From Naegleria gruberi (lineage: Eukaryota), in NCBI GenBank assembly GCA_000004985.1, contig GG738909.1: DNA of 64,000 bases. One strand, 5' to 3'. Positions 749 to 60,700 of the stretch are shown in pieces. Made by a program: the position numbers and the translations under genes. The notes under the pieces were generated by a model that saw only the letters and a program-made list of their open reading frames with translations, was not told the origin of the DNA and made no database searches. Within the stretch, counting starts at the first letter, position 1, and each line of letters begins with the position of its first letter.

Positions 749-1402
749 ATGCAAAACTTGTCTTTGGATGATATCTTTTGTGTGATGGAATTTTTGCCCA
801 GTCATGATTTGGCGAATGCTCTGATGACTTGCAAGGAGTGGTATTCCTTGGATCAATTTGAACCATTCTGGAAGACAATTCTACAACACTATCTTACTTC
901 AAATATTATTTTACTATACGGAAAGATTGTCGGAGTTCATAAAGTCTCCATGACGATCAAAAATTATTGGGATCTGCCAAAGGTGAAGAAAACACTTAAA
1001 ACAGGTAATACAAAGGAAAAGAAGGCATTAATTTCATCTTTGAGATCTCTCAAGACGAAAAAAAACTCTAAACTCTTTACTATAGATAGATCAATATTGA
1101 ATATGTTTCTTACCTCATATGATATTCACATATTGCAGGATAAGACAGCTTCTAGAGAGTCTTTGAAAAAATTTATTATTCATGATGAAGAAGTTGGACC
1201 AACAGATGAAGAAATGGATGAATTTGATAATGGAGAAACGTCATCAGAGAGCAAGAGACCAGCAGTGATTGGCAAAAGATTCAAATACTTGATGGAAAAG
1301 CAATTATACTCTAAGAGAACTGTTATTATTTCTACATTCTTAATATCAACAAGAGTAATTATTATCATCGTGCAGATGAGGCTTTCATACTTTCATTATT
1401 AA
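749..1402 (+). CDS. F-box domain protein (first coding segment). It is probably the same gene as 1543-2619, joined by an unresolved intron or frame change.
   Basis: The N-terminus LSLDDIFCVMEFLPSHDLANALMTCKEWYSL matches the F-box consensus. The frame-2 ORF ends at 1402 and a frame-1 open frame begins at 1357. A candidate intron at 1355-1449 (GTAATT...AG, 95 nt) has compatible phase but is unverified. Confidence 0.5.
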   Translation: MQNLSLDDIFCVMEFLPSHDLANALMTCKEWYSLDQFEPFWKTILQHYLTSNIILLYGKIVGVHKVSMTIKNYWDLPKVKKTLKTGNTKEKKALISSLRSLKTKKNSKLFTIDRSILNMFLTSYDIHILQDKTASRESLKKFIIHDEEVGPTDEEMDEFDNGETSSESKRPAVIGKRFKYLMEKQLYSKRTVIISTFLISTRVIIIIVQMRLSYFHY

Positions 1403-1542
1403 GTACATGTTTAGGAAAGGAATATAGAAGTGAGACGTGTTCCGTAGAGGATTACCAACTTGGAAAGGAAGCCTTTTCATTATTTTTCAAATTTCATGAA
1501 CAGTTAGATTATGCTGACAAATGTTGGGCCTCAATATTAGAT

Positions 1543-2619
1543 TTGTGCGTTATGAGCTTGAACGAGTTTGTAAAAGTAGAGGATTATGAGGAGGTTTTGA
1601 AAAAGATTTTGGAGGTCAAATATACTTTCAGTATTGATCTCTCATTGGTTGAATATATATTTTTCCAAACTGATTGCTGTACGAACGGTCTTCTGCCATT
1701 AATAACACAAATACTTGAAAAAAATAGAATGGAGGGCTCCTTTACAAATTACATGATGTATCAGAGTATATATGATATGACTGATGAGCTGAAACTTGCT
1801 AAACAAGTTGCTGACTATTTTACATATTTGGAAAAGTTCAGAACTCGTGAACAAATAATGCAAAGTCACCTTAATGATTTTATTATTTCATCAATGGGAA
1901 GATTGCCAGATACTTATATTGATGAGCTCTTGAAGCTATATCCTATTGATCTTAATTCAGTTTCATTCTCCGATTGTGCACGATTTCAAGTTACTGAAAA
2001 GATCCTAGAGATTGCCAATAGAAGAGGAATTTATTATCCTCTAGAGACTGTAGAGAAAGCCATTGTCGACATATATTACACTCGCTCTTCCTATAATACC
2101 ATCAAATACATTATGGAGCACTATAATTTGGATATTTACGAGATTGAGAAAAGAACCAAATTTTTCTCTAGATTTTTAGGATCGCTCTTAAGATATGATA
2201 TCAATACTGAACAATTGAAATCAAATATTGAAACAATATTCCCAAACTCACCAATAGAATGGAAAAAATTGGCAAGCATACATGATGGAATTAATGAAAT
2301 TACTGAAAGAATCATTAGTCTTGTTCAAACTTGTTGTGAGAGACCGTCAGGTGAAGAGTTACTTTATTTAAGGGAGTGTTTTACACCAAATATTTTTGAT
2401 CTGAATGTCATGGTACGATCACTGTCCAATGCAACACCTGCATGTTCCCTCACTCTCTATAATCTTACCATGTATTCTGAAGATGAGAAACTCTCTGACC
2501 ATATGGATAGAATGCTTAATGAGCAAGATTTTTCACATTTTACAGGTATTGATTTTGCAAATTACGGTCCATCAGATCCTAGATATTTAGTAGCAGTTTA
2601 TCGATTTGTCCACCAATAA
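1543..2619 (+). CDS. Hypothetical protein, about 358 aa, probably the C-terminal part of the F-box gene upstream.
   Basis: Long ORF on the same strand immediately downstream of the F-box segment. The track's start is a TTG. No motif recognised. Confidence 0.4.
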   Translation: MCVMSLNEFVKVEDYEEVLKKILEVKYTFSIDLSLVEYIFFQTDCCTNGLLPLITQILEKNRMEGSFTNYMMYQSIYDMTDELKLAKQVADYFTYLEKFRTREQIMQSHLNDFIISSMGRLPDTYIDELLKLYPIDLNSVSFSDCARFQVTEKILEIANRRGIYYPLETVEKAIVDIYYTRSSYNTIKYIMEHYNLDIYEIEKRTKFFSRFLGSLLRYDINTEQLKSNIETIFPNSPIEWKKLASIHDGINEITERIISLVQTCCERPSGEELLYLRECFTPNIFDLNVMVRSLSNATPACSLTLYNLTMYSEDEKLSDHMDRMLNEQDFSHFTGIDFANYGPSDPRYLVAVYRFVHQ

Positions 2620-5089: not shown

Positions 5090-7816
5090 ATGCAAATGCT
5101 TCACATTTTGATAATAAGCGTTTTCCTCACGTTGTTGACACCAGCCATATGTCAATTTATTCCACCTGATATTGAAGTCAAACCTATTATTACTGGCCTA
5201 AAGGGACCCTCTTCACTCTTTTACCAACACGACAGTCTCTTCATCCTAGCAACTAATCAACAAATTCTACTCAAGACAGACTTTCAATCAAAGCCAAACA
5301 TTATTCTTGGCATTAACAACACTTTTGGATACAATGGAGATGGAAAACTTGCAAAGGACACCACTTTAAGTAATCCTCACGGTTTACATGTGAATGGCTC
5401 GTTCATTTATATTCCAGATAAATGGAGTCAGCGCTTGAGAATGGTCAACAAGGAAACAATGATTGTTCAAACAATTGCTGGAAATGGAATCTGTGGTTTC
5501 AGTGGTGATGGACAAAAAGTTGGAGTGCCAAATACACAATTGTGTAATCCACAAGGAGTTTTTGTGGAGAAAAATGAGATTTATATTGCAGATACTTTCA
5601 ACAATAGAATTAGAAAGATAGATTCGAATAATTTTCTTTCGACTGTTGTAGGGTCTAGCTCAATTGGTGGGTTTTCAGGGGATGGAGGTCTAGCAACAAA
5701 CGCCAAACTCTTTAGACCTGAATCTGTATTTGTGTATATGAATCAAGGCCAAACTGATATATTGATTGCCGACACTTTTAATAATAGAATCAGATTAGTC
5801 AAGAATGGTATAACCTCAACAATAGCAGGCGGAAATACCCAAGGATACAATGGAGATGGTATTCTTGCTAAAGATGCGTATCTATGTCAACCTAGCTCTG
5901 TATTTGTTACAACAGTTGGTGAAAGTCTTATTGCTGATTATTGTAATCACAAAATTAGAAGAATTTTCACAAATGGAACGATAACTAGTTTACCAATACA
6001 GGTCAGATATCCAAAATCCATTTTTCTTGATCAAACAAATGGCAATCTTTACATCTCTGAATTGGTTGATGGGACAGTTCAACAAGTGACATTTTACTGT
6101 AAAGAAGGATACAAATTGAATGATTTTCTTGTATGTGAACCTGTTTGCCAACAATCATGCAATACGAAAGGTAAATGTTTGGCTCCTGATGTTTGTGAAT
6201 GTCAGGACAGATACTATGGTGAGTTCTGTGAGGAGTTTACATGTTTTGGAATCTCAAAGGATCATCCAATGGTTTGTTCTGGACATGGATCTTGTATTTC
6301 TCCTGATTCATGTGAATGTGAAGTTAATTACTTTAACAGTAACTGCTCAGCAACTTCTTGCTTTGGAAAGAACTCAACCGAGCCATCTGTTTGCAATTCA
6401 CATGGTAAATGCACTTTATTCAACACATGTAAATGTGAATTCAACAAATATGGTGGCAATGAGTGTGAAATTCCTCTATGCAATGGAAAAAACTCTTCAG
6501 ATCCCAATGCATGCTCTGGTAATGGATTCTGTAGCACTGTCGTTTCTCCCGCTTCATGCATTTGCACTCGAGATATGAGTGGAGCATATGTAGGATCTGA
6601 TTGTCAATACCCAACCTGTATTTCAATCCCCTCTTACGAACCGAGAGTTTGCAGTGGAAATGGTCGTTGCTATGGATTTAATTTGTGTGAATGCAAAGAA
6701 GGATACGAAGGACTGTTTTGTGAATCAGTTACATGTGGAACTGGTTGCAAGATAGCTGCTTCAATTCCTGCGAGCGTTGTAGTCGGAGTTTGTGGTGTTA
6801 TTAGTTTGGTTTTGTTTCTGACGAGAACGAAACTGAAAGAATTTGCTAAAAAGCTCACATATACTGAACTTAAAGATATAGAGATAGTACCTTATCAACA
6901 TTTCTACATTGCTACAGAAGATGAAAAATACGAATACAAACTCAAAAGAATATTAGGAAAGGGAGGATTTGGTAAAATTTATGTTTTTGATGAGATTAGT
7001 GATGGGCAAACCATTGAAGTTGCAGTGAAAATCGTTGAGTCAGTTGATATGTCTGTTCTTAATGAGCCTACAACTATGAGTAGGTTACAACATACCCATA
7101 TTGTACCTATTCGTCGTTTTACAATTGTTGGTGATGGAAAGTATACTTGTTTAATTATGCCACTGTATCTCTGTGATTTGAGAAAGTGGTCTCAAAGCTC
7201 ATTGATGACCATTGAACTGATTATTGAAATTGTTAAGCAAACTGCCTTCAATATCTGCACAATATGAATATGGTCCATAGAGATCTGAAACCAGAAAACA
7301 TACTAGTTGAATCTCCAAATCCTTCACAGGATACGATCATTGATATATCCTCATTCCACTTGCGTGTTGGCGATTGGGGATCAGCCAGATTCGAATCTGT
7401 TGAGACAAGCAATGGTTTCACAGCACAGTACTGCTCACCAGAACATTTTCAAGAAGGAATAACTTCCTGCAACAAGAGTGATATTTGGAGTCTTGGATGT
7501 ATTCTCTATCAATTACTCTCATCAGATTACGAATCGAAACTAAATGTAGTGAAACAAAAAACTCAAAGTGATGAAGACGATAAGGAAATTAGGGAAACAG
7601 TAAGGGGAATGACCAAACTGGATGATTCATTCAAGCTTAATTCCATGTGTGATTTAATGCTAAATATGATCAAGTTCAACCCAGAGGAAAGGTAAGTTTG
7701 CTTTGAATCTAATAATCTTAATCATAATGGATAGAATATCTGCTGATGAAATATTGCACAGATTGAGTACCATTAATAATCAGTCAATGGATATAGCTCA
7801 GAATTCTGGCAATTAA
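5090..7816 (+). CDS. Receptor-type Ser/Thr protein kinase with a signal peptide, NHL-like repeats, Cys-rich EGF-like repeats, a TM helix and a kinase domain. Contains a 1-nt frameshift at about 7237-7245 and an intron at 7692-7734.
   Basis: - Repeated xADTFNNRIRxI units (NHL-like), then multiple CxCxxxxxGxxC EGF-like modules.
- TM segment VVGVCGVISLVLFL.
- Kinase motifs GKGGFGKIY, VAVK, HRDLKPENILV, DWG and SPE.
- The frame switches from 2 to 1 at a run of three A at 7239-7241. Restoring one A gives ...EIVKQNCLQYLHNMNMVHRDLKPEN.
- Donor GTAAGT at 7692, acceptor AG at 7733-7734, last exon 7735-7816 (...FNPEERISADEILHRL*). Confidence 0.7.
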
Positions 7817-24622: not shown

Positions 24623-24714
24623 TACTCCAAAGTATTATTTGGAGATAGGTAGGCTTCATAACAGAGCTCAAAATAAATTACTCCAAAGTATTATTTGGAG
24701 ATAGGTAGGCTTCT
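24623..24714. repeat. 36-bp direct repeat (ttactccaaagtattatttggagataggtaggcttc) present twice, 20 bp apart. It spans the stop codon and 3' UTR of cyclase copy 1 and is absent from copy 2.
   Basis: Read directly: 24623-24658 is identical to 24679-24714. The homologous 3' end of the paralog at 53225-53290 carries a single copy. Confidence 0.7.
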
Positions 24715-27700
24715 TGATTGATTGTCAAGGTAATATTATCATTGTTTCTTGTTGGTGTTTTGGGTTCATTCAATGTTTCAAGATTTGCAGAATTTTTCTT
24801 TTGTAAAATGTTTAAACTTGTTCTCAACATGTCAGTGAAGGATGGAACAAGAGCTGGAGTGTGATGTTTCTCATGCAACATGTAAGCAATACATTCACCT
24901 TTTCCTTTCACATTTAAATGTCTTTCTTCAAAAGTGAAACCCAAATCATAAACTCTTTCGTAGGTTGATCTGGAAATTTGAATTCTTCCTGGAATTGAAT
25001 TAGATTCCATTCTTGAAGCTGTATTAATTGTATCTCCCCATAAATCCTATTTAATTAAATATTAAGATGAAGTATTGAAAATGTACATGTTAAAATGTTA
25101 AAATGTTGAAATTAAAAACATACATATGCAAATTTCTTCCTCCCAATAACACCTGCAATAACACTTCCAGTATTAATACCAACACGAATATTAATTTGTT
25201 CAGATGGATGTTTTCCTGATTTTGAATTAAATCTTTGTAAAACATCAAATGTATCAATGGAAAATCTCAAAATTCTTTCAGGATGATCTGATTGTGCATT
25301 CAATCCATGTAATCCACCCACACAAAAATATGAATCTCCAATCGTTTTAATCTTTTCCAAATTATACTTGTCTGTCAAATCATCAAATCCAATTACAATT
25401 TCATTCAACATTTGAACCAATTCAGATGCTTGAATTCCAGTACTCAATTTTGTAAATCCCACCATGTCACTAAAAAAACATGAAACATCATTGAATTTCT
25501 CTGCAATATAAGTTTCTCCTGATTTCAATTTACTTGCTACTGCACTTGGTAAAATATTCAATAATAATTCTTCAGAATGTTTCTTTTCTTCTGTCAATAA
25601 TGAATTATGTTTCTTCTCTGTTGTAATATCCTTAATGAAACAAGTTACAACACTTTGAGAATTGTGAAGAGTGGCAAAAATATTGACACGTGATGGGAAG
25701 CTTGTTTGATTCTTTCTGATACATTCCAATTCAATAGAATCTCCTTTCGAATCACCTCTTGCTGCATTCACCAACATTTCATCAATGAGGTTTTTAATTT
25801 TCGATTGCTCATTCTTTTCAAATAATTGATACAATGATCTTCCAATCGTTTCTGTTTGATTGTATCCAAATATCTTTTGAGCTGCTGGATTGAATATTTC
25901 AATATCAACCTTCTCTCCACTGCACATCACTGCTCCATCTACAGATGCATTCAAAATGCTTCGAACTTTTGAGTCACCTTCCCCTAAATTTGACTTCTTT
26001 TTGAGGAGGGAAGACAATGTATTTGGAATATGGTGATGTACAATGTAATTCTTGATATTTTCATTAGAATCCATTAACTCAATTGATAAATAGTTAAAAA
26101 GAAGACGAAGTTGTTGGACAGAGTTGGCATGTTGATGTAAGGACCAACGAATGGCAAGTGAAATGGAGATAATTGCAATAAATCCAACGAAACTGAATGC
26201 GTAGACAAGTTCTTCATCAGTTATGGCAGCATCTTTTGAAAAAACAGTAGAAAAATCAATCAATTGATCTGAAATGGCTCTGGAAAGATGGAAATGTTTA
26301 ACAAACGTTTCGAACAGCTTCAAGTTATTAATTTTTCCGTTTTCATCCATTAGCTCCATTATTTCATTGGAAATTGTGACGAAATTTGTAATCATATCAT
26401 CAATTCCCATAACGCACGAATGATTACCATCTTCTTTAAACATGTCAGTCAATGTACAATTTTCCTGACCTGCCACGAGTAAATTTACATCATCAAATTT
26501 TCCAAGTATGGTATTTTCTGGATTCTCTCCAATGGATGTTCCATAAATACATAAATTCCAATGGTTTTTCAAGTCACTTGATTTTTCAGTAACATAATGC
26601 TTTGGATTGGATGTAAAATTGTATAAATTAGAAACTCTGAAGAAAGCATCATTGTTGGAGCGAAATCCAGATATAATATACTTCTCAGTGATAAAATTAC
26701 TCAAATATTGAATATCTTCAAAAGTTTGGAATGATTCTTTCATAATAACATAGGATCCGTAACATTGATTCACATTTTGTAAAGTTTCCAATAAGAATAG
26801 CCCACAACAAACTGAAACAATTAGAGAGAGAATAAGAGCCAATACAACTACAACACTCCTTGGATATTTCCAAACACTCTTGACTGGATGAGTTGATGTA
26901 TCATCATTGACTACCTTACTCAATTCATGGAATAATCTTCCTGCATCATTTTTTGAAACATTCTTCTCAATGAGAAGAACTATCTTTGTTATAACAGATA
27001 GATCTAACTTAGAGTAGAATACATAAAGAGATGTATAGAGGAAGTAGACTGTCACAATGATGGAAAAGTAAATGATAAAAGTATTAGTAATTAGTTGAGT
27101 TTCATCCTTTGAACTGGAAACAAAATTCACACAAAAATCAGAATAGGCAGTAACCATTCTCTCGGAATTAAAGTACTGCACATGATTAGAATAAAACTCT
27201 AGAACAACTAACTTACCAATAACATAAAGGGATAACTTGACAGAAAACTCTCTAGGTCTGCTAGTCCAAATTTAGAAATAGTTTCAGAGTGTGTATAGAA
27301 TAAATTTGTAATATCTGCAATAGTGGTATTAGTAGTGGTCGAAATGTTATAAACCTTATCGATTTCTGTTGCTGGCCATGAAGTTGGTAAATTGAAAGTG
27401 TAATAAATTTCATGATATTCAGAGTACATTTCCTGTGTGAATTTTCCGTCATGAACCAATTCTCGCACTGATTTCAAAATGTCCCTGTAAGTATTAATGT
27501 GTTCTAACATTTCTTCATGATAATGTTCCAAAGAAGTATATCCATACTTGGACATGACATTCATCCATTCAACCATTGAGTGATTGTACAAATATGTGAT
27601 TGGTTGAAAAGCTCTCATACTAGACATGATCTGAACAGAGGCGCCAACTGGAGCACAAGCTGTTTCCACTATTTTAACAGTGCCTGAAATATAGGATGAG

Positions 27701-30087
27701 AATGAAACACTCAAAGCCAAACTAACACTCAAAAACAAGATGGAAAATAAGACAAATAGAGAGAAGAGGAAAACTTGGAGAGTGTGTCTGTGTGGAAGGC
27801 TCAGTGAAGTTCTGAATACGTTTTCCTTTCTAAATTCTGGATTATTCTCAATTCCATTGAATTCTGGATTGGTTTCTGCCTCTTTCTGATCGCCATAGAA
27901 TGAACTGCTCTCACTTCTAATGTCGTGTTCCTGGAGATGGATACCAATATTTGGGCCTTCTTGTGTTGGAACTATTCTGTTTTTAAACTTGGACTTTTGA
28001 TTCCTCTTCTTTCTTAATTGAGCATTTCTTTTGGTTTCTTCCTCTTCCAAACTTGATGCTTCAGCATACAGCTCTTGAGCAGCATCCTTATTAAACTTGA
28101 ATTCTTCAATGTATTTGGCAAAATTTCGTAATAAATTCTTGTCATTCTTATAAATTGCCAACATGTTCAAAAACTTGGTTTCACATTCATTGGAAATAAT
28201 TCCCATTCTTACAATGATTGATTCAATCTTATCCCTCAAGACACATTCCTGGAGCATTTCCTTCCAGAACATTCTGTGAAGGGCTTTCAATTCATTTTGT
28301 CTCCTTTCGAGAATGAACATTACTTCACTCATTTCTTCAGTATTTTTGGCATTTGGATTAATTTGATGAACTATAATGTCAACTTCCTTCTGTTTCAAAT
28401 AGATGAGGAATCTATACCATGTATTTGGTCTCTTTTTTATGGCTCTCCTTAAAATTCCTTTGGAAAATGTTGTGGCATTGACATCATTTACGAGACAATT
28501 TGATGCTATAGAACTTGATAAGAGAAGAATATCATTATCGAGTTGTGAGTTGAGTGATGATATACCTCTAACAAGAGAAAGAGACATTTTCAGATTGCTC
28601 AACATATTTGGATTGCTGGAAAGAGTTGGATCTTCTTCATCTGTTGGAATCTTTTCCTTAATGGAGAATTTCAAAAAAAGTTTCAGATAATTCAACTTTT
28701 TGGATTCTAGAAAGTATTGGTAAATATTAATGGAATCCTTCTCGATTGCCTTTTCCAGTAAATCAGGGAAACCATTATTAGATTCATTTCTAATACCTTC
28801 AATTACAATAAATCGAACACTTCTAATCAAAATTCTTGTAATCGCCTCCATTACCATCATTCCAACAAAAAAAGAGATGATAATCATTGCCAAAGTCATT
28901 CCAGCTAGACCAATTCCCAGCACATTATCAACTGACTTGTAAATTGCCGAAAGATTTGGATTATTTACAACGCCACTAATTAGAGAACCAAAACTTGAGA
29001 AGATCCTTGCAGATAACACTCCAACCATAATGGAATTCTCAAATCTCTTAAAATATGGAACGTTTTTCGAAAAACCAATCATTAAACCAATCGAAACTAT
29101 CAAATGCACAATCGATCTGATAAATGCATACTGAGGAGGAATCACATAATGTGAAAGAATTTGGAATTGAGTACAAATCATTGTTCCAATAAGGAAAATT
29201 GGATGATCAGAAGTGAATGGAGAAAAGTGTTGGGGATGACAATTCGTCACAATTAATAGAGAAAAACATGATAATATCATTTGAATGATTATTCCAATAA
29301 TCATGATGGCCATGAAGGCAATATTAATAGTTGAATAACATTCAATGTTCTGGTTTGAATATTGTAAAAAACGGTTGAGAACTGAGACAGAACCAAGATT
29401 ACAATCAAGTGGTGTTGTCAATAGGTAAACAGCTGGAAGAGAAACGAGTAGAAAAAGTTTCGAACCAAGGGCCAAACCTTTCTTTGTCCATTTCAAATAT
29501 TGAGAAGTTGTTTTGTAAGCATACACACTCCAAACCAAGTAAACAATAAATAACAGCTCTACAGCTATAACCACAAACGCTAGAGCCAACGAACCTATAT
29601 AAGGTAACCTTTCGAATGATAAAGTCAAAGGATAGTTCAATACAGAAAAAACCCATGTTCCCCACTCTCCGTATTTCATTTCCATTCCAAGATTTGGCAA
29701 GAATATACCAATCCAAAATACATAAGTATGAAATAGTAAACTAATCAAATAGGAATATAGACCTTCTCTTAATTGTGCCTCTTGCATGAAGAATATAAAA
29801 TCCATAAGTTGATTTCTGAGCTTGATTCCAATCGAAATCTCAGAGCCAGTAATATCTGTTGTTGAATATTTGGAATGTTGGGACGAGAAGGATACATTTG
29901 ATGAGCTAGAGGTATGTTGTCCATGAACTGAGGGAATATTCAGATAACTTGTTGGAGTCGTCTGGTTTCTAGCAACGGTTGACCCACGACGTGAAGTACT
30001 AGCAATAGAGATTGAATCCTCTTCTATGGCAATATTGTTGTTGTTAGTATTATTCAATTGATTTATACTAGCATTGGGATGCAACAT
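24678..30087 (-). CDS. Multi-TM, PAS-domain, class III adenylyl/guanylyl cyclase, copy 1; complement(join(24678..25046, 25124..27175, 27217..30087)), about 1763 aa.
   Basis: - Two clusters of TM helices, a PAS-like segment (ILNASVDGAVMCSGEKVDIEIFNPAAQKIFGYNQTETIGRSLYQLF), then the cyclase domain (FSDMVGFTKL, KIKTIGDSYFCVGGL, DLWGDTINTASRMES).
- Intron 27176-27216 (41 nt, GTAAGT..CAG, phase 0).
- Intron 25047-25123 (77 nt, GTATGT..AG, phase 0) splits FAY|DLWGDT.
- Paralogous to 47986-53257. Confidence 0.8.
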
Positions 30088-30563: not shown

Positions 30564-32405
30564 GTGGAGGAGTGTGATAAAATTTTCAAAGCAATAGATA
30601 AACCAAATTTATATCTTCTAACAACGTTTCTTAAAAAACCAATAGATATGCAAAGGAAAAGGGACTTGTGGAAGCAATTTGATAACATGATTCAGAAAAT
30701 GTCAATTCAACAAAAGAAAAAAACATCAATTCATATTTGTGGAATTTCATCATTAGGGAAATGTGCCAATACAATTTCCAATCGGCAATGGATTATTTCT
30801 ACTTGGTGAAGAGAAAATCTAGCTTTATTGGAGAAGTACACTTTGAATAATTTATTAAATTCGTGCAGTACTTTTGGAACGTGGGAGGCTGAGTTTATAT
30901 TTCGAAACATTGAGGCACGTGACAAGTTTCATTATTCCTGCTACATCAAAGCTGGATGCACCACAAAAGAATCTGCTTTAAAGCTGGAAGAATTAATTAT
31001 TAATAGTGGATTTTTCAATGATATAATTGTCCAAACAAGCCTCATTTCTATGTTCTCCAAGTGTGGGTTATTAGAAAGGTCTATTGAACTGTTCAACAGC
31101 ATGGAGAAGAAACCAACAGCAAGATGGAATGCAATGCTTTCCGCATACGCACATCACTCTCTTTACAATGAAGTACTACTGTTATTCAGCGAGATGGAGG
31201 AATCTTCAATTGAGACGGACAAGCAAACTTTTAGCTATGCTATTCTAGCCCTATCGAGTCTTGGAAAATCTCACTATCATGCACTAATCAAGGGATGTAT
31301 TAACAGTTCGAATTTCTCAAGCTTTGAATGTTTTAGAGCTGATGAAAAGAAAGCGAATTCCACTAAGCTCTCGAATATTTATATCACTCATGAATGAATG
31401 CATCAAAAGTGGTATTTTGTATGATGCAAAAGTTTTACATCAAGAAATTGTTGAAAATCTACCTTCTTTTTTGTCTGATCCCTTTCTGGTAGTGTCATTA
31501 ATTAATATGCTTGGTTGTTTCAATCAGTCCCAGGCAGTATTGGATGTTTTTGGTGGGTACAATGGACAAGATGTGGCCGTGTTAAATGTTACATTGTCAG
31601 CTCTTTACAAGGATGGTTTAATTCATAATGCTCTCAATCTATTCTATGAAAATACGAAAAATTACAAGTTTGATGAAAAAACATTTACAATTATTTTAAC
31701 AATGTGCAAAGACATGCAAAACGACGATAGTGTAAAGGGTCAACAATATTTTGAAATGATGAAACAATATGAAGTTGAACCAAATATCTTCCATTATACA
31801 TGTCTTATCAAGTGTTTTCTCTCAGAAAAGCAATTTGAAAGGGCTCTGGATATTCTCTTTGATATTCATTTGAAAGGAATTCTAATTGATGATGCTTGCT
31901 TTAACTCTTCCGGGGGGTCTCTTTAAATCATGATCATTATGAAAATTACAATGGAATTGCATCAAATAATCATCACGATGAAGGAAACTTTTCATTCTTC
32001 TTTTATTGATTTCTGTGCCCAGTACAGTATGAGAGAATTGGCTGGTAGAGTTCACATATAATGAAAGATTTTGGACATAAACCAAATATACAACTCTTCA
32101 ATATGCTAAATATGTACTTGAATGTTGGAAATTTTGAAAAAGCTCTAGAACTGTATAAAGAATTAAGAAATCAAGCCAATATTATCACTTGCAACATTCT
32201 CATATCTGGATTAACTTTGAATGGGCAGGGTAAAGAAGCTATTAGGATATTCAAAGAAATGAATATAGCCCCTAATGGCACCACATTTGCTGCAGTGTTG
32301 AATGCATGTAGTCATTGTGGATTAATTAAGGAAGGATTTCAAATCTATGAAAGTATGCAAACAAATCATGGTATTGAACCAGATGGTCGGACTTTTAATG
32401 TTTGA
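30564..32405 (+). pseudogene. Plant-type PLS-class pentatricopeptide repeat (PPR) gene, degraded: in-frame TGA, at least two frameshifts and a C-terminal truncation.
   Basis: - PLS-style repeats: LISMFSKCGLLERSIELFNSMEKKPTARWNAMLSAYAHHSLYNEVLLLFSEMEESSIETDKQTFSYAILAL and ITCNILISGLTLNGQGKEAIRIFKEMNIAPNGTTFAAVLNACSHCGLIKEGFQIYESMQTNHGIEPDGRTFN.
- In-frame TGA at 30807-30809.
- Frame-3 to frame-1 shift at about 31311-31320, and a further shift between 31926 and 32061.
- The ORF ends at 32405, where the duplicated coiled-coil segment begins, with no E/DYW extension. Confidence 0.6.
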
Positions 32406-32430
32406 CAACCAACCTACATTAAAAGTTATT

Positions 32431-33898
32431 GTAACCTTACAAAAAAACTATTATTGGAGAGATGGTGAACTTTGCTATTGTGGTAATTTCCCGCACTTTC
32501 TATTTTCATTTTTCAACAACAAAAAAAACAAATCAAACAATTATTTAAATAATAATCTAAAACAATTGATAAGAAAGAAAATGTGTACTAATAATAATAA
32601 TAATAATACTCTCACTGGTAAATTAATCATGAGAAAGAACAAGGAAGAAAGTATTGAAAAGGTTTTCCAATTAATTAATTTCGGAGGCTTGAATGAATCT
32701 GTTAGAGAATTTGTTCAAGATTTGTCATCTGCTACTTCTTCTGATGAAGTGTTATTATCCACTTTCAAGATCAAGGCTATTGTTCCATCTTCTGAGAAGA
32801 GAAAAACAATTTATATAATTAATAATGAAAATGATTTTTCTGAAATGATGAAATTAATTCAAGAAATTCCACAAGATAAACCAATTCTTTTCAGAGTAAT
32901 GAAGAAGAAATTGAATCATGAAAAGAAGGAAAGAAAGGAAAAGAAAGAAAGAAAGGTCAAACTTCAATTGACTGAAGAACAATCTCAAAGTCTTTCCGAA
33001 AAGAAGCAACAAGTTGAATTATTGAAAGATGAAATTAAGATGAAGAAGGAACAAATCAAGACTATCAAATTTGAAATGAAATCTTTGAGAAAGTCATTCC
33101 ATCATGTCAATGTTAGCATTGACTCAAATGTTCCATCTACTATTAAGTCATCTCCAAACAAGGAAGAAAGACTTAAACTCAAACTTGAAAAGAAGGAAGA
33201 AAAGAAAGCTTTCAAATTGGAAAAGAAGTTACTCAAAGCTCAATACAAGCTTGAAAAGATTGCATTGAAGAAGCAAAGAAAGCAACAAGGAAATACTTCT
33301 ACTCAACCAGAAACTGTTTCAACTACCACAACTTCTAGTGAACCAACTGTTCCAATTAACGTACCTATTGTTGAACCAGTAATTGTTACTGTACCACCAG
33401 TTCAACAAGTAACAACTGAACCAGTTTCCAACAATGATGAGATTGTCACTCCAACTGTTGATGCAAGGCTCTTGTTGAAACTCCAAAAAAAGGAACAAAA
33501 GCATGCTTTGAAAATGGAAAAGAAACTTGAAAAACAAATAATCAAAGCTCAAAGAAAATTGGAGAAACAAGGTCAAAAGCAAGAGAGAAAGGAAAGAAAA
33601 TTGTTAGAAAAGCAACAAGTTACCACTCCTTCTCAAAATTAATATTAGTTTAGAATAATTTTAACAACTATCATCAGAGAACTATTCATCAATCGTAATT
33701 TCTCCCTCCACATTTGTTGTGTCTGAGAGAATGAATTGTGAAATAGATTTTACTGAGATAGTTTAATTGCACCAGTCAATCATGATATAGCTGGATTTAA
33801 GGATCATGAAACAAATCTAAACAATATCTTGTAAATAACAAAATAAATCAATGTTACACAATTGTATGGCAAGTTTTCTATTTATTGTGGGACTATTG
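32431..33898. repeat. Segmental duplicate B, left arm. The inverted partner is 62227-63690, at about 95-97% nucleotide identity.
   Basis: Partial aligned comparison of the 5' flank, coding sequence and 3' flank. The coiled-coil proteins differ at about 16 of 355 residues, plus a poly-Asn length difference (N6 vs N8). Confidence 0.8.
32581..33642 (+). CDS. Lys/Glu-rich coiled-coil protein, copy 1 (353 aa).
   Basis: ATG at 32581. Poly-Asn tract, a globular N-terminal region and long K/E-rich heptad-like repeats (KLEKKEEKKAFKLEKKLLKAQYKLEK...). A nearly identical inverted copy lies at 62488-63555. Confidence 0.6.
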   Translation: MCTNNNNNNTLTGKLIMRKNKEESIEKVFQLINFGGLNESVREFVQDLSSATSSDEVLLSTFKIKAIVPSSEKRKTIYIINNENDFSEMMKLIQEIPQDKPILFRVMKKKLNHEKKERKEKKERKVKLQLTEEQSQSLSEKKQQVELLKDEIKMKKEQIKTIKFEMKSLRKSFHHVNVSIDSNVPSTIKSSPNKEERLKLKLEKKEEKKAFKLEKKLLKAQYKLEKIALKKQRKQQGNTSTQPETVSTTTTSSEPTVPINVPIVEPVIVTVPPVQQVTTEPVSNNDEIVTPTVDARLLLKLQKKEQKHALKMEKKLEKQIIKAQRKLEKQGQKQERKERKLLEKQQVTTPSQN

Positions 33899-33998
33899 TA
33901 AATATGACAATGTACCAAAGGTTAGTTTAAAAAAAAGAAAACAAAGGTAAAGAAAAAGGAGTGAATACATTTATATTTCACACTTTAAGAAATTGAAT

Positions 33999-39481: not shown

Positions 39482-41043
39482 ATGAAGGTATTGAAAAGAT
39501 GGATCAAGATGATACCCTCCGAGTCTTCCAATCAATGTGAATGTTGTTGTACGTTTGATAGTAGCAAGGGAAATAGTAAGAGTGTTCTTCCGGTGATGGA
39601 AAGCACTTCCAGTGCATCTTGTTATCGAGTCTCCTTTGATGATATGTTGTGTGAAGATGTCATTGTTATAATTTGTTCCTTCTTGGGAGCAGAGGAGTTG
39701 TGGAATAATACTAGAAGGGTGAATACGAGTTTTAGAAATCAAACAATGAAGGATAGATTGTGGAAGGAACTGTATCATTTGAGGTGGGGCAATTTGAATG
39801 AATCTCTTGTTGTCAATTCATGTGTCTATCATCAGCAGATTGAGGCATCAATTCCTTGGTGGCAGATATACATGCAAAGGTTTGTACTGTTTTTCACTAT
39901 CTTGTTAACAAATTATCTTTTGATTTTTCACATAGACACAAATGGTTATCGTTCGAGTTTAATACATTGGAAAGAAAGTGTCCAACACTGAATGTGATGG
40001 AGGAACTGTTCTGCTCTGTGAATTGTCTGGAAAGTGGGATGGCATTCTATGAGAGATTACACTCACTTGGCAAAATCGCAAGCGAATGTGGTCTCCACTT
40101 GATTTCACAGCAACAAACAAAGAATACCAAGTCACAAGCTTCCACCAATCCACTGTATACAGTCCCTAAATCCAATGTTGAAGAATGCGTCATGTTTTGT
40201 AAACTATTCCTCAAGGCCTATTATGGAAAAGCAACAAGTTATGTTCAAGGTCCCAGCAGACTTTTCTCTGCCTTACTAAATTTGCAAGTGATCTTTTTAC
40301 TAGTCCAATCGTATTCTATAAGTGGAGAATACGACAAGACAATTGCCTACTCGACAGAGTGTTTGGATGGCATCCACACTATTAAGCAACAATACTCATC
40401 AGAATCGACAAGCTCTGATGAGCTTATGATGAGTAAGATTGAGGAAAAGTGCATCTTCTACAGAGGTTACTCATCCCACAAGTTGGGACTCTTCACTCAA
40501 GCAGAGAGGGATCTTGAGGTGGCAGAATCCGTGTACTCCGTTTCATCATGTGCACAAGAAGAGTACTGCTCCCCAATAAGAGAAGGTACCATTAACAATT
40601 CGAGAAAGTACTACCACCTCATGAATATTCAATTCACACTCATTAATAACCATATCAAACTGAAACAATTCCAACAATCTTTAGAGTATTTCATCAAATT
40701 GATTTCACTCATGAGAAGTGCCACAGATAGCCAGCAAATCATTGGAAAGTCTTCCATAACCATTGAATCAATGGATGAGAAATCATGGAACCTACTCAAT
40801 TTGTGGTTTCCTGGATTGCCATACTTTTTCCTTGCTGAATTTCTTTACAAACAACAGGACTACTTGTCCTCCAACATTCTCTTTGAGAAATATAGCAACT
40901 ATGAGCAAGGAAGAAAGCTTTCCGTGCATAAGCATCAAAAACAAACACCACCATCCAATCCTTCCAAAGATAAGCAATTGGTTCATGCCATGAGCAGAAT
41001 TAATCAAATAAATTCTGTCATCCAAAGTGATCAAGAATATTGA
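39482..41043 (+). CDS. F-box-like N-terminus plus a helical-repeat hypothetical protein; join(39482..39879, 39936..41043).
   Basis: F-box-like segment LCEDVIVIICSFLGAEELWNNTRRVNTSFRN. Intron GTTTGT at 39880, acceptor AG at 39934-39935 (56 nt), phase 2, joining ...WWQIYMQ|RHKWLSFEFNTLERK. Confidence 0.5.
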
Positions 41044-42754: not shown

Positions 42755-44988
42755 ATGAAACGAGTCTCTCGAATTGGGATTGAAGGAGAGCAGCAACAAG
42801 AACCTCAGCAACGTCGACAACAACAACCACAAACATCAACAACAGAATTAGCATCATCATGTCCGAACCTACATGTATTAGTACAGCACCAACACCAGCA
42901 CCATAATCCAGAGAAGTATCTTGCTGTTACTACATGTACTAATCTTCATACTAAAAGTCCTTCTTCTTCATCGTCATCAACATATGAACATGAGCATCAC
43001 ACACCAGTAACAAACATTGTCATGCAACAAGCAACAATATCGTTACCTTCTTCACCAGTTGTGAATAACGAATCATCTTTACCATCAACATGTTCAGCAA
43101 GGATAACATTACATCCCATCTCATGTAAACGTTGCAAAAGTAGACATACTAGATGTGATAGAGTCTTACCAGCATGTAGTTATTGTTTAAAGAACAATTT
43201 CGAATGCATGTATGAGACTCCAAAAAAGTTAAGGAAGAATTTCAATGCAGAGTTTGTCGATCTGAATGAGAAGACATCAAGTAGCATGCATGCATCAATC
43301 ACACATCCACAACAACCCAAGTCCAAGTATAAGGTCTATAAGTTCAAGTTGAATACCAAAACTAAAGCTGAAGATGAGGAACCAATGGAAGAATGTGAAA
43401 AATATTGTGTAATTGATGATAAACCAATGTCAGCAAGGAAATTAGTGGAAGAACATTCTCATGTGATGGTGATGGTGATGGTGATGGTGATTCCCATAGA
43501 GAAAATGCTACTTTTGAGTTTAGAAATGAAATCAGACTCTTTGCAAAGAACTTTCTTGAATCATCATTGGATTATTATTCGAAACATATTTCGTAAGTTG
43601 AAGTATTTGATTGGAAGAAGTAGTTACCAAGTTGTATATATGGAAGGTTTGGGAATGACATTATGACAAGGGCAGATGTGTTGACTTTGTTGGACTTGAC
43701 AAACTCGGAAAGTTTACAATTATTCCCAGATGATTTGTTAGCACTAATGTATGCCTCACAAGCATTGATTCTGTATTTTAAGGAAGAATGGCGAGAGGCA
43801 GAGGAATACTACAACAAGTGCATTCAAATATTGGAAGATGAAACCGAATCAAATAGGCTTCTTTGTCTTTCTACCACTTTTGAGAATAGGACAATGTTTT
43901 TCACATCGAATAGAATGGATTCTCAGTCTCTGTTCTTGATAGGAACTAGGTTAATATTGTGTCAGTACAAATTGTCGATGGGAGATTTGAAAGAAGCTGT
44001 AAAATTTGTTAGATTGGCAGATGTCATGCTGGATGAAAGGTTTCCTGTATTTAAGGAACAAAGTTTTTTACCAATCAATGCTAATGAAATACCTCAAAAT
44101 CTATTTGATGGAATATCAAAGGAGGAAATTCTAATTATCAAAAAGAGGATTCATTGTGGAATGCTTTTGGATGAATTGAAATTCACACTGGAAAACCTAA
44201 AAGAATACATACAACCTGAATCAATGGTTTCCTCTCCACTTTTCAATAATCAATCATTCATACTGAAAGAAAGTAGTACTTTCCAATTTTCTTCATTTGT
44301 GAATAGATTTGTCTTTGGAAATTCAATAGATATCAGAGGTAGATGTAAATATGAACTGCTGTGTTTGTTGCAGTCCCCTAATGTGATTTTTAGGAATCAG
44401 ACTAATGTACCCTTCTTAATAATAGGAATAGCTGAGAATAATGTGAAACATTTGGAAGAAGAAGCTTTGGAACAATTTGGAATTGGAAAAGTACAAGCTA
44501 TTTCACTGAATGAATCATCAAGTCTAGATTTAAACGAGTTTAATCAAGTAGTATTCGTGTTACAGAAAATATACTTGACTAGTTGCAGTCTGCTTGTTCT
44601 CCACGAAATAATAATCAACAGCTCCCAACAATTTACACAACAATGTGATAGTGAAATTGTTGAAAAGTGTAAAATATGGAGGAGTGCCTTTGCAGACGAG
44701 CTTAGTGATTATTATGCACTACTACCAACAGAAACAGTAAATATTTGCTTATTGGTTGTGGCTGTGTTCGTGGTGGCAAACATTCATGCTGACCTGATTC
44801 GAAGAGAGCTGCTCAACAAAACTCCTCCGCCCGCGTTACTTGTGCGTAGAATGAGGAATGATTTTAGATTGCTCTCACTTTTAAAGAGAAAGTTTTCCAA
44901 CTGGTTTGGAAGTTATCATAATAAGTTGTGCGAGAATATAGAAAACTTATTGAACGAAATTGCAATACTTAATAAAGAAAATTTATAA
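42755..44988 (+). CDS. Zn(II)2Cys6 (GAL4-type, fungal-type) binuclear-cluster transcription factor, with an apparent 1-nt frameshift at about 43651.
   Basis: - CKRCKSRHTRCDRVLPACSYCLKNNFEC has C-x2-C-x6-C-x6-C-x2-C-x6-C spacing.
- The frame switches from 2 to 1 within a run of three G at 43651-43653. Four G would give ...YMEGLGNDIMTRADVL.
- (GTGATG)n hexanucleotide microsatellite at 43458-43490 encodes (VM)n. Confidence 0.6.
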
Positions 44989-58877: not shown

Positions 58878-59786
58878 TCTCACAAATTTTTTTTGATTTA
58901 TTTTGTTTGATTGGTGAATATTAATAGAAAGGAAAGAAACTGTATCAATTTTGATCTACCAATTGAACTAGCGAAACACATCTATTTAAACGAAGAGAAT
59001 TGTTAACTTTTCAGCAGCAACAACTTTATATTCAATCAAAAAGCAATAAAAAAAATAAAGAAACACTCGAGCAAAACCAACACGTGAAAGATGTCATTCA
59101 TTCTTTGTGATTAATCTTGTTGGTGGTACAAAACTTTTTGATGAGTTTCTTAATCAAGTTGACAAAGAGAAACATTCTCCAACAGATTTAGTTTCTCTAT
59201 TTGCATTGACTATTAATATTAATGTCAGTACTTTGGTTGATAAGATTCCCTCCATTACTCCAATTGACTTTCAACAGTAACATCACCACTTAATTCAAAC
59301 CTTACCAAATCAAAACAGATTTGTTAGGAATAATGGAGATTTATTGCTAACAGAAATTTTCCTGAAACTAGTGGACCATTACAACGAGAATGATTGGAAT
59401 TGTAGATTGGACCGAATGAATGATTTTTTCGACCAGAAATTGAAAGATCAACATGTCAAGATAGGGTTTTCTTTCGATGAAGCTCACCTATTATTCAAAC
59501 ATGCCCAACAAAAGGTGTAAGTCAATGGCCAACTAAAGGGGGGTCTCTTCCATGCTGTTTATGAACAAAATCGACAATTTAACAATCCTGTTTTTCTTGG
59601 CTCAACATTTAACATATCAGATGCCAATCTTGATGTCAGTCGAGAAGGAAGACAATTGGTTAGACGTGTTATTGGAACTCTTCAACCATGGCTGTTGCCA
59701 GGAGTTAACACAGCATTGACTCACTTGTTTCTGGTTCACCTCAAAACGTAACCATTTTACATAGAGAATTATTACAAAAATCATAT

Positions 59787-60700
59787 GTGAATTCAAATGA
59801 CAAATTTTCCATTATTAGAGATGCTCTAGATGTTGTTATTCAATACAAGAGAATGAAAAGTTTATCCAGACTGACATCCTTCCTTAATGAAACTAAATTG
59901 ATTGATATAAAAACACACCTATTACGATTATTATTCAACAAGAATCGCGTGTTTGATTTTCGAGAAATAGACTCTGAGTTGGAAAGCACCAATCATTCCT
60001 ATACTTATTCACAAGCATTCATTGAACACTCAATTGCCCATGTTTCGAAATTATGGTTGATGATATGTGGCAATTCATGTCATATGAGTTTAAAGGAACT
60101 GGTGAGGAATTTGAATTGTTCATGGGTATGCTTCTCCTACACGAAAGTACATCATTGAAAGGACAATCCTTTACAAAAAGTCCACTATTTAAAAGTATAA
60201 CAAACTCAACGTTGAACCTAGAATTGGAAGAATGGTCAATCAACATAAAAAGCTTGCTACATGATAGAAATCTCTCAAAGATAACACTTCAAATCACAGT
60301 TGGTAATAGGTTCACTCAATTGGCAAACAATTATTTTAGAAATTCTTTTATAAAACCATATGATGAAGCATGTCCAGATGGAATGTTTTATTTAAAACAT
60401 CATCAAGAAGAAAAGTATCAATTGGTAATATGTGCCATGACCTTAATTGCTGATCCTGTTACTGACAGGCTACAACCAGATAAGGCTCTCAATTTGCTCA
60501 AAACATTAGTTCTCTACTCTGGAAAAGATGAATCAGAAATTCACACAGAAAACTCTGCTATTGGATGGATTATTGCTCCAAATATGGATGCAAATACGAT
60601 CAGTCTAACAAATTTGCGAAATTTAAAGCAAACACCAACATCTCAAGCTCTATCTTCACTTGAAAATGGTTCTTTGAAATTAATGGTTACAGAGCTCTAG
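59787..60700 (+). CDS. Hypothetical protein in two overlapping frames (apparent frameshift near 60026-60052).
   Basis: Two same-strand ORFs overlap in different frames. No motif is recognised and no intron candidate was identified. Probably one gene with an indel, or two small genes. Confidence 0.3.

What the first reader, a model, noticed from the sequence alone, without database searches (positions are those of the whole stretch)
7237..7245. Recurrent single-base frameshifts at homopolymer runs in otherwise intact genes
Three cases were found:

- The receptor kinase switches frame at a run of three A (7239-7241). Adding one A restores ...EIVKQNCLQYLHNMNMVHRDLKPEN.
- The Zn2Cys6 factor switches at a run of three G (43651-43653). 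Adding one G restores ...GLGNDIMTRADVL.
- The hypothetical gene at 59787-60700 changes frame near short runs at 60037-60050.

Each lesion is 1 nt and sits in a homopolymer, and the flanking coding sequence is otherwise clean. This points to sequencing or assembly indel errors, which would mean gene models in this assembly need correction. The alternative is very recent pseudogenisation. The PPR gene also has a frameshift in a run of T (31311-31320), but it carries a nonsense codon and a truncation as well, so that one is a true pseudogene.
Basis: seen in the sequence. Interest (0 to 1): 0.5.

Follow-up and report, generated by a model that had tools for sequence, protein, structure and literature searches.

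The report
Frame-broken genes in Naegleria gruberi reference
Two otherwise intact genes and two clearly decayed pseudogenes in this stretch of the Naegleria gruberi reference genome have broken reading frames, but the link to homopolymer runs is no better than chance, and only read data can show whether the two clean breaks are real mutations or draft errors.

Summary
The window is the Sanger-sequenced Naegleria gruberi NEG-M reference: four window ORFs are exact NCBI proteins on a 250,472-bp scaffold.

- **Site 1, receptor kinase:** confirmed. A net -1 frame break lies inside a contiguous kinase domain (possible interval 7237-7264), and no intron can explain it.
- **Site 2, Zn2Cys6 factor:** confirmed (interval 43624-43663). 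The public gene model hides the break with a 137-nt "intron". That segment is homologous to coding sequence in the N. lovaniensis orthologue. Homology places the lesion near 43627-43629, not at the GGG run.
- **Site 3:** the frame change is real, but the gene is not otherwise intact. Homologues show an in-frame TAA and a second frame-breaking gap, so it is a multi-lesion pseudogene. Only its last 215-aa ORF is annotated.

The homopolymer link is at chance level. Of all bases, 21% lie in runs of 3 or more, and intervals of 21-30 nt contain such a run 80-89% of the time. All 128 runs of 5 nt or more in 32.5 kb of ORFs are crossed in frame.

I could not decide the cause of the two clean breaks. 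I estimate about 0.5 for a real young or allelic mutation and about 0.35 for a draft consensus error. Splicing rescue of the Zn2Cys6 gene is not excluded. This is an ordinary annotation-quality matter of low interest.

The parts
5090..7816 (+). Receptor kinase gene with signal peptide, NHL repeats, EGF repeats, TM segment and kinase domain. Exon 1 is 5090-7691, the intron is 7692-7734 (GTAAGT...ATAG, 43 nt) and exon 2 is 7735-7816. It is intact apart from one frame break.
   Evidence: Pfam hits. Restored translation of 894 aa. GKGGFG, VAVK, HRDLKPEN, DWG and SPE motifs are all present. No public N. gruberi model appeared.
7237..7264 (+). Interval that must contain the kinase frame break (net -1). 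It is bounded by TAA 7234-36 in the downstream frame and TGA 7265-67 in the upstream frame. Homology narrows it to about 7237-7250.
   Evidence: Pkinase model positions 107 to 110 across the break; no frame-restoring intron keeps the catalytic loop; repairs by +1 nt or by -5 nt are both compatible.
42755..44988 (+). Zn2Cys6 (Zn_clus) transcription-factor gene. The restored product is 744 aa and is the orthologue of N. lovaniensis C9374_003867.
   Evidence: 32% identity over residues 120-718.
43624..43663 (+). Interval that must contain the Zn2Cys6 frame break (net -1). The best homology fit is at 43627-43629 (context TACCAAG).
43593..43729 (+). The 137-nt segment removed as an intron in public model P0121 (GTAAGT...TTATTCCCAG). 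An alternative 83-nt version ends at 43675. The inside is homologous to orthologue coding sequence (LKxL.G..Y.SC.Y..FG ... LFPDD).
   Evidence: the spliced window equals P0121 exactly; 8 of 2000 shuffles reach the real score; sense-strand GTAAGT occurs only 3 times in 32.5 kb of ORFs.
59323..60700 (+). Multi-lesion pseudogene of a roughly 520-540 aa protein of unknown function. Lesions are an in-frame TAA at 59518-59520, a frame break with about 16 residues missing at about 59724-59730, and a frame break at about 60044-60056 (TTT 60043-45). Only 60053-60700 is annotated, as EFC38257 (215 aa).
30810..32405 (+). PLS-type PPR pseudogene. It has a frame break at about 31305-31310, an in-frame TAA at 31924-26, double stops at about 32055 with a return to the first frame, and a truncation at the edge of a 95%-identical duplicated block that starts at 32423.
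1315..1399 (+). Unverified extra candidate. In the F-box gene 749-2619, two long open frames (226 and 434 codons, net -1) overlap here, and no consensus splice donor is present.

Best explanation
The window is part of the Sanger-sequenced Naegleria gruberi NEG-M reference. Its frame breaks are a mixed set of gene-decay states, not one class of homopolymer artefact.

- Two loci are old pseudogenes with several independent lesions: the PPR gene and the unknown-function gene at 59.3-60.7 kb.
- Two loci carry a single net -1 break in an otherwise perfect gene: the receptor kinase and the Zn2Cys6 factor.

I infer that these two single breaks are most likely genuine, very young loss-of-function mutations. 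They may be present on only one allele of this heterozygous amoeba and have been captured in the mosaic consensus.

The consequences are shown. The kinase would be truncated before its catalytic loop. The Zn2Cys6 protein would end after 303 residues unless the segment is spliced out. Automatic annotation responded by dropping the gene, inventing an intron, or keeping only the last ORF.

The cause of the two clean breaks is inferred, not shown.
For: **Identity of the window.** Four ORFs are exact NCBI N. gruberi proteins, and P0121 equals the window once spliced. The technology is Sanger (PMC9928731 Table 1).

**Real decay in the same 64 kb.** There are nonsense codons and multi-residue frame-breaking gaps in two genes.

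**No homopolymer signature.** Runs of 3 are background. All 128 runs of 5 nt or more in ORFs keep frame. The best repair site in Zn2Cys6 is not the GGG run.

**Natural small indels are common here.** There are 10 indel events against about 100 substitutions between two pairs of 95%-identical duplicated blocks.

**Heterozygosity.** It is reported for N. gruberi (PMC9928731 citing Fritz-Laylin 2010).

**Gene families.** The affected genes belong to lineage-specific, fast-evolving families. The nearest full-architecture kinase homologues are about 30% identical overall and 25-26% in the kinase region, and the window holds recent duplications.
Against: - Both single-break genes are 'too clean'. 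All kinase catalytic motifs are intact, and 184 and 441 downstream codons have no further lesion. An assembly error would look exactly like this.
- Two single-lesion genes against two multi-lesion ones is more single-lesion cases than a steady state of fixed pseudogenes predicts.
- An unfinished Sanger draft can carry indel errors. As one example, 30 indels were corrected in a 95.7-kb Sanger draft mitochondrial genome (PMC4511438).
- No independent sequence of these loci could be found.
Confidence: 0.5

Rival explanations
1. The two clean breaks (kinase, Zn2Cys6) are consensus indel errors of the unfinished Sanger whole-genome-shotgun assembly, for example in a low-coverage or low-quality patch. 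The real genes would then be intact. Nothing here is specific to homopolymers.
For: The genes are otherwise flawless. The restored Zn2Cys6 reading is homologous to the orthologue right across the break. Sanger drafts do contain indel errors. Two such errors in about 37 kb of coding sequence is within the range I would expect of draft accuracy; that expectation is my own knowledge and was not computed here.
Against: Sanger has no known weakness at 3-nt runs. No break occurs at any of the 128 runs of 5 nt or more in ORFs. The same window shows undoubted real decay in two other genes. Natural 1-nt indels are seen between recent duplicates.
Confidence: 0.35
2. This applies to the Zn2Cys6 site only. 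The segment starting at GTAAGT 43593 is really spliced out (137 nt as in the public model, or 83 nt), so the mature mRNA is in frame and the gene works. The 'intron' would be former coding sequence that has been, or is being, turned into an intron.
For: The donor is a perfect GTAAGT, the dominant donor of confirmed introns in this window. It is rare inside ORFs, with 3 sense-strand occurrences in 32.5 kb, one of which is this donor and a second probably a true donor. Frame-compatible acceptors exist at 43675 and 43729. The public model uses it.
Against: The removed segment aligns to orthologue coding sequence (8 of 2000 shuffles). Both spliced products fit the orthologue worse than a 1-nt repair: 19/21 and 38/44 against 52/61. 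The orthologue's own intron is at a different position and is absent here. A gene finder will pick any usable donor to bridge a frameshift, so the model is not evidence. GTAAGT also arose by chance at the nonsense codon of the site-3 pseudogene (59517).
Confidence: 0.2
3. The breaks are bypassed during translation by programmed -1 ribosomal frameshifting.
For: All clean breaks need a -1 shift. A formal X XXY YYZ pattern (T TTG GGA, 43648-54) exists at the Zn2Cys6 site.
Against: The kinase interval has no slippery heptamer. From general knowledge, U UUG GGA is not a functional eukaryotic slippery type, because YYY must be AAA or UUU. The 96 nt downstream fold no better than shuffles, z = 0.07. 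Homology places the switch about 20 nt upstream of that heptamer.
Confidence: 0.01

Closest known systems
Young unitary pseudogenes or segregating loss-of-function alleles in heterozygous microbial eukaryotes
   Same: There is a single frame-breaking lesion in an otherwise conserved ORF, in dispensable, expanded signalling and transcription-factor families. Older multi-lesion pseudogenes lie nearby.
   Different: Allelic status and reality of the lesion are unverified, and no second haplotype or strain sequence was available.
Consensus indel errors in draft assemblies
   Same: They give isolated frameshifts in clean genes, and annotation pipelines react by truncating models or adding introns.
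   Different: The classic homopolymer-length errors belong to 454, Ion Torrent and Nanopore data and concentrate in long runs. This is a Sanger assembly, the runs are 3 nt, and all longer runs in ORFs are in frame.
Frameshift-bridging artefactual introns in automatic gene models
   Same: P0121 removes 137 nt (2 mod 3) that are open in two frames and homologous to orthologue coding sequence.
   Different: The donor is a perfect consensus GTAAGT, which is rare in coding sequence here, so real splicing is not excluded.
Programmed -1 ribosomal frameshifting
   Same: The direction of the needed shift is the same.
   Different: There is no functional slippery site or stimulatory structure, and the gene types are unrelated to known cases.

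Membership tests
Homopolymer-length sequencing error | The lesion lies in a homopolymer more often than chance, with risk rising with run length | tested here: not met
   Runs of 3 or more cover 21% of bases, and 21-30-nt intervals contain one 80-89% of the time. All 128 runs of 5 nt or more, 26 of 6 nt or more and 6 of 7 nt in 32.5 kb of ORFs keep frame. The best Zn2Cys6 repair site is 43627-29, not the GGG run.
Homopolymer-length sequencing error | Assembly produced by a homopolymer-prone technology (454, Ion Torrent, Nanopore, PacBio CLR) | tested here: not met
   The window equals N. gruberi NEG-M, and that assembly is listed as Sanger (PMC9928731 Table 1).
Homopolymer-length sequencing error | Raw reads disagree with the consensus at the site | not testable with these tools
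   No reads are available here. Public NEG-M Illumina and Nanopore data exist.
Pseudogene (decayed, multi-lesion) | Two or more independent disabling lesions relative to intact homologues | tested here: met
   Site-3 gene: TAA at 59518-20 plus two frame breaks, measured against P0123 and P0124. PPR gene: two frame changes, in-frame stops and a truncation. The kinase and the Zn2Cys6 gene have only one lesion each.
Pseudogene (young, single lesion) in kinase and Zn2Cys6 | The lesion is real in the organism's DNA and the product is not rescued | not testable with these tools
   This needs reads and RNA. No independent assembly or contig was found.
Spliceosomal intron (public model of Zn2Cys6, 43593-43729) | Consensus donor and acceptor with a frame-compatible length | tested here: met
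   GTAAGT...CAG, 137 nt (2 mod 3). The spliced translation equals P0121.
Spliceosomal intron (public model of Zn2Cys6, 43593-43729) | The removed sequence is non-coding, so orthologues lack the corresponding residues or have an intron at the same position | tested here: not met
   The orthologue has aligned residues throughout, including LYPDD against LFPDD. Similarity of the segment is significant, with 8 of 2000 shuffles reaching it. The orthologue's intron sits between CYIA and FG, a position that is continuous DNA in N. gruberi.
Spliceosomal intron (public model of Zn2Cys6, 43593-43729) | Spliced transcripts are observed | not testable with these tools
   No transcript data were available.
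Programmed -1 ribosomal frameshift | Functional slippery heptamer in the zero frame within the permissible interval | tested here: not met
   There is none in the kinase interval. The Zn2Cys6 site has only the non-canonical T TTG GGA.
Programmed -1 ribosomal frameshift | Stable downstream stimulatory structure | tested here: not met
   43655-43750 folds at -16.5 kcal/mol, z = 0.07 against shuffles.

The most novel reading that the evidence does not exclude
The Zn2Cys6 locus could be a snapshot of intron birth from coding sequence (intronization). In this reading, a stretch that is still recognisably homologous to orthologue coding sequence, and that now carries a frameshift, is removed from the mRNA. 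Removal would use a consensus GTAAGT donor, a motif that is otherwise strongly avoided inside ORFs of this genome. The gene would stay functional without about 28-46 residues.
Probability: 0.1. Interest if true: 0.55.

Novelty: already known. Interest (0 to 1): 0.15.

Why it matters
The main value is for users of the N. gruberi reference. At least three public gene models in this 64 kb are wrong or missing because of frame breaks:
- a receptor kinase has no model;
- a Zn2Cys6 factor is missing 46 residues because of a probably artificial intron;
- a pseudogene is annotated as a 215-aa protein.

The tempting rule 'frameshift next to a short run means sequencing error' does not hold in an AT-rich genome. 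If reads confirmed the breaks, they would give a small estimate of how many null alleles this heterozygous amoeba carries. If reads refuted them, they would give a local error rate for the 2010 assembly. Neither outcome would surprise a specialist.

Tried and rejected
**1. Intron explanation for the kinase break: rejected.** The Pfam kinase model runs from position 107 to 110 across the break. Every frame-restoring GT..AG combination either deletes core kinase-domain sequence (including the catalytic loop in most cases) or has a poor donor.

**2. Apparent extra frameshifts: rejected as real introns.**
- The split of cyclase paralogue B (27208-30087 / 25112-27181, minus strand) is a 41-nt GTAAGT...TGCAG intron that paralogue A lacks.
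- The overlap 39482-39991 / 39856-41043 is a GTTTGT...CACATAG intron.

**3. Search for independent sequence of the loci: found nothing.**
- Exact look-ups of broken and restored ORFs.
- Homology searches, which returned no near-identical fragments.
- Two metagenome scans.
- N. gruberi contigs are not in the contig index.

**4. 'Open path' test for the putative Zn2Cys6 intron: uninformative.** 20-48% of non-coding segments of the same length pass it.

**5. Representative search with the N. lovaniensis orthologue.** It gave only ORF fragments starting after the region of interest. One Logan contig (L002, an unnamed species about 80% identical to the N. lovaniensis protein over its C-terminal half) repeats the N. 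lovaniensis structure, so it is little extra evidence.

**6. Programmed -1 frameshifting: rejected**.

**7. Stop-codon reassignment: rejected.** It was considered because of in-frame TAAs in the site-3 gene. ORFs of up to 1609 codons are stop-free and genes end normally.

**8. First search used badly.** The first homology search used the whole kinase and was swamped by bacterial NHL-repeat proteins.

Full report
**What the window is.** The sequence is eukaryotic with about 33% G+C. A search with the restored Zn2Cys6 protein returned 'predicted protein [Naegleria gruberi]' (P0121, 698 aa). Splicing 43593-43729 out of the window reproduces P0121 exactly. Four further window ORFs are exact NCBI N. 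gruberi proteins (EFC38287, EFC38297, EFC38246, EFC38257) on a 250,472-bp scaffold. The only N. gruberi assembly listed in a 2023 pangenome paper is strain NEG-M, sequenced by Sanger, at 40.9 Mb (PMC9928731 Table 1). Another paper gives 33% G+C and 1.7 exons per gene (PMC8296547). The window is therefore the 2010 Sanger draft reference, not a long-read or 454 assembly.

**Site 1, receptor kinase (the flagged coordinates).** ORF 5090..7267 encodes a signal peptide, NHL repeats, EGF repeats, a TM segment and Pfam Pkinase model positions 1-107. The -1 frame from 7237 carries positions 110-251, including HRDLKPEN.
- The domain is continuous, so there is no room for an intron. Every GT..AG pair that would restore the frame either removes core kinase-domain sequence (including the catalytic loop in most cases) or has a poor donor.
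- Stop codons confine the break to 7237-7264.
- A genuine 43-nt intron (7692-7734, GTAAGT..ATAG) and a normal C-terminus follow, and all catalytic motifs are present.
Against the two nearest full-architecture homologues (about 30% identical overall, 25-26% in the kinase region), removing 5 nt gives the homologue spacing and scores at least as well.
- No N. gruberi protein model for this gene exists in the 5.8-billion-cluster collection.

**Site 2, Zn2Cys6 factor.** The frame switches between the TAG at 43621-23 and the TGA at 43664-66.
- The public model hides this by splicing 43593-43729 (137 nt, GTAAGT..CAG).
- The N. lovaniensis orthologue (P0122, 32% identity over nearly the whole length) has residues aligned throughout the removed stretch, including LYPDD against LFPDD.
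- The orthologue's own 51-nt intron lies between CYIA and FG, a position that is uninterrupted DNA in N. gruberi. A Logan contig from an unnamed species about 80% identical to the N. lovaniensis protein shows the same structure.
- I scored every possible 1-nt repair against the orthologue. The best fit is at 43627-43629 (52/61), which gives ...GRSSYxSCIYGRFGNDIM... against ...GIYEYYSCYIAFGTTFI....
- The similarity of the 'intronic' 84 nt to orthologue coding sequence is reached by only 8 of 2000 dinucleotide shuffles.
- This is therefore coding sequence, or was until recently, with a net -1 break, and the GGG assignment is not supported.
- One caveat remains. The donor GTAAGT is the usual donor of real introns here and is rare in ORFs, with 3 sense occurrences in 32.5 kb. 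Real splicing of this segment cannot be excluded.

**Site 3.**
- Two homologues of 540 and 514 aa (ENA, 35-39% identity) align to the window in three frames: 59323-59730, 59724-60044 and 60056-60691.
- The first block crosses an in-frame TAA (59518-20) that is aligned to V/L.
- At the first junction the two frames overlap in the DNA, and about 16 homologue residues are missing.
- The second junction (TTT 60043-45) could be a 1-nt event, giving IAHV|FEIMVDD where P0124 has VFEIVDP.
- The gene is therefore a multi-lesion pseudogene, not 'otherwise intact'. Only its last ORF is annotated, as a 215-aa protein.
- The PPR gene is likewise multiply broken and is truncated at the edge of a duplicated block.

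**Is the homopolymer link more than chance?** It is not.
- 21% of all bases lie in runs of 3 or more.
- A 9-nt window contains such a run 56% of the time, a 21-nt window 80% and a 30-nt window 89%. The permissible intervals are 28 and 40 nt.
- 32.5 kb of open frames contain 128 runs of 5 nt or more, 26 of 6 nt or more and 6 of 7 nt. All are crossed in frame.
- A length-dependent error process would hit those longer runs first.

**What causes the two clean breaks?**
- *For real mutation.* The technology is Sanger. Two undoubted pseudogenes lie in the same 64 kb. The region is rich in recent duplications (two 1.5-kb blocks at 95% identity) and in lineage-specific families. Natural small indels occur at about 1 per 10 substitutions between those duplicates. 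Heterozygosity is reported for N. gruberi, so a recessive null allele could persist and be picked up by the consensus.
- *For error.* Both genes are otherwise perfect. Single-lesion cases are as frequent as multi-lesion ones. Sanger drafts do contain indel errors, for example 30 corrected in a 95.7-kb draft mitochondrial genome (PMC4511438).
- *No independent sequence exists in the collections I could search*.
- *My estimate.* Real young or allelic lesions about 0.5 and consensus errors about 0.35. For Zn2Cys6 only, splice rescue is about 0.2, and it overlaps with 'real'.
- *Programmed -1 frameshifting is rejected.* The kinase has no slippery heptamer, Zn2Cys6 has only a non-canonical U UUG GGA, and the downstream fold has z = 0.07.

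**False alarms checked.**
- The two-ORF split of the PAS-adenylate cyclase on the minus strand is a real 41-nt intron that its paralogue lacks.
- The overlap at 39.8 kb is a real intron.
- One further possible net -1 break is in the F-box gene at 749-2619, where the frames overlap at 1315-1399 and no consensus donor is present. It remains untested.

**Comparison with known things and verdict.** These are ordinary phenomena: pseudogenes, possible null alleles or draft errors, and annotation artefacts that bridge frameshifts. The practical message is that three public models here are wrong or missing, and that public NEG-M reads (PMC12344493) can settle the cause in an afternoon. The only mildly novel possibility is that the Zn2Cys6 segment is coding sequence being converted into an intron (probability about 0.1).

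Noticed in passing
window 57890-58335, minus strand: About 430 nt lie between two ankyrin-repeat exons ('...LVDYKNG' and 'KGETPFEIAKTNNF...'). They consist of roughly nine consecutive intron-like units of 40-50 nt. Each unit starts GTAAGT and ends in AG, and most are separated by only 3 nt (GGA, GGA, TGT, CAT, AAT, TCA, TGT). TRF finds no tandem repeat. It looks like a stack of mini-introns, or one long intron full of reiterated donor sites.
   Followed up: partly
window 24655-26126 vs 53280-51798, and 32423-33914 vs 63716-62211: Two inverted duplicated blocks of about 1.5 kb are 95% identical. The first covers the 3' ends (cyclase domain) of two PAS-adenylate cyclase paralogues whose N-terminal halves are only 47% identical in protein, which suggests gene conversion or a partial recent duplication. 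The second is a Lys-rich gene next to the truncated PPR pseudogene.
   Followed up: partly
window-wide; ORF set listed: The splice-donor hexamer GTAAGT is strongly depleted on the sense strand of ORFs. There are 3 occurrences in 32.5 kb, against about 11 that I estimated by hand from base composition. One of the three (45741, minus strand) is probably a true donor near an ORF end. This suggests selection against cryptic donors.
   Followed up: partly
window 749-2619 (+), overlap 1315-1399: The F-box gene has two long open frames (226 and 434 codons) that overlap by 85 nt with a net -1 shift, and no consensus donor is present; the best candidate is GTAATT at 1355. It is either another frame break or an intron with a weak donor.
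   Followed up: partly
L001:11200-11260 (N. lovaniensis) and L002:1260-1330, vs window 43640-43655: The Zn2Cys6 orthologues of N. lovaniensis and of an unnamed species about 80% identical to it share a 51-57-nt intron (GTATGT...ACAG) between CYIA and FG. N. gruberi lacks this intron precisely, which indicates intron loss or gain within the genus about 20 nt from the frame break.
   Followed up: yes
window 60744-62048 (-), protein EFC38297: A 90-aa ENA-derived fragment (P0127, 788-nt contig) clusters at 90% identity or more with this N. gruberi protein. Some public environmental or transcriptome assembly therefore contains a very close N. gruberi relative.
   Followed up: no
window 59517-59522: The nonsense codon of the site-3 pseudogene (GTG TAA GTC) itself creates a GTAAGT hexamer. 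This shows that the donor consensus can arise by chance in decaying sequence.
   Followed up: yes
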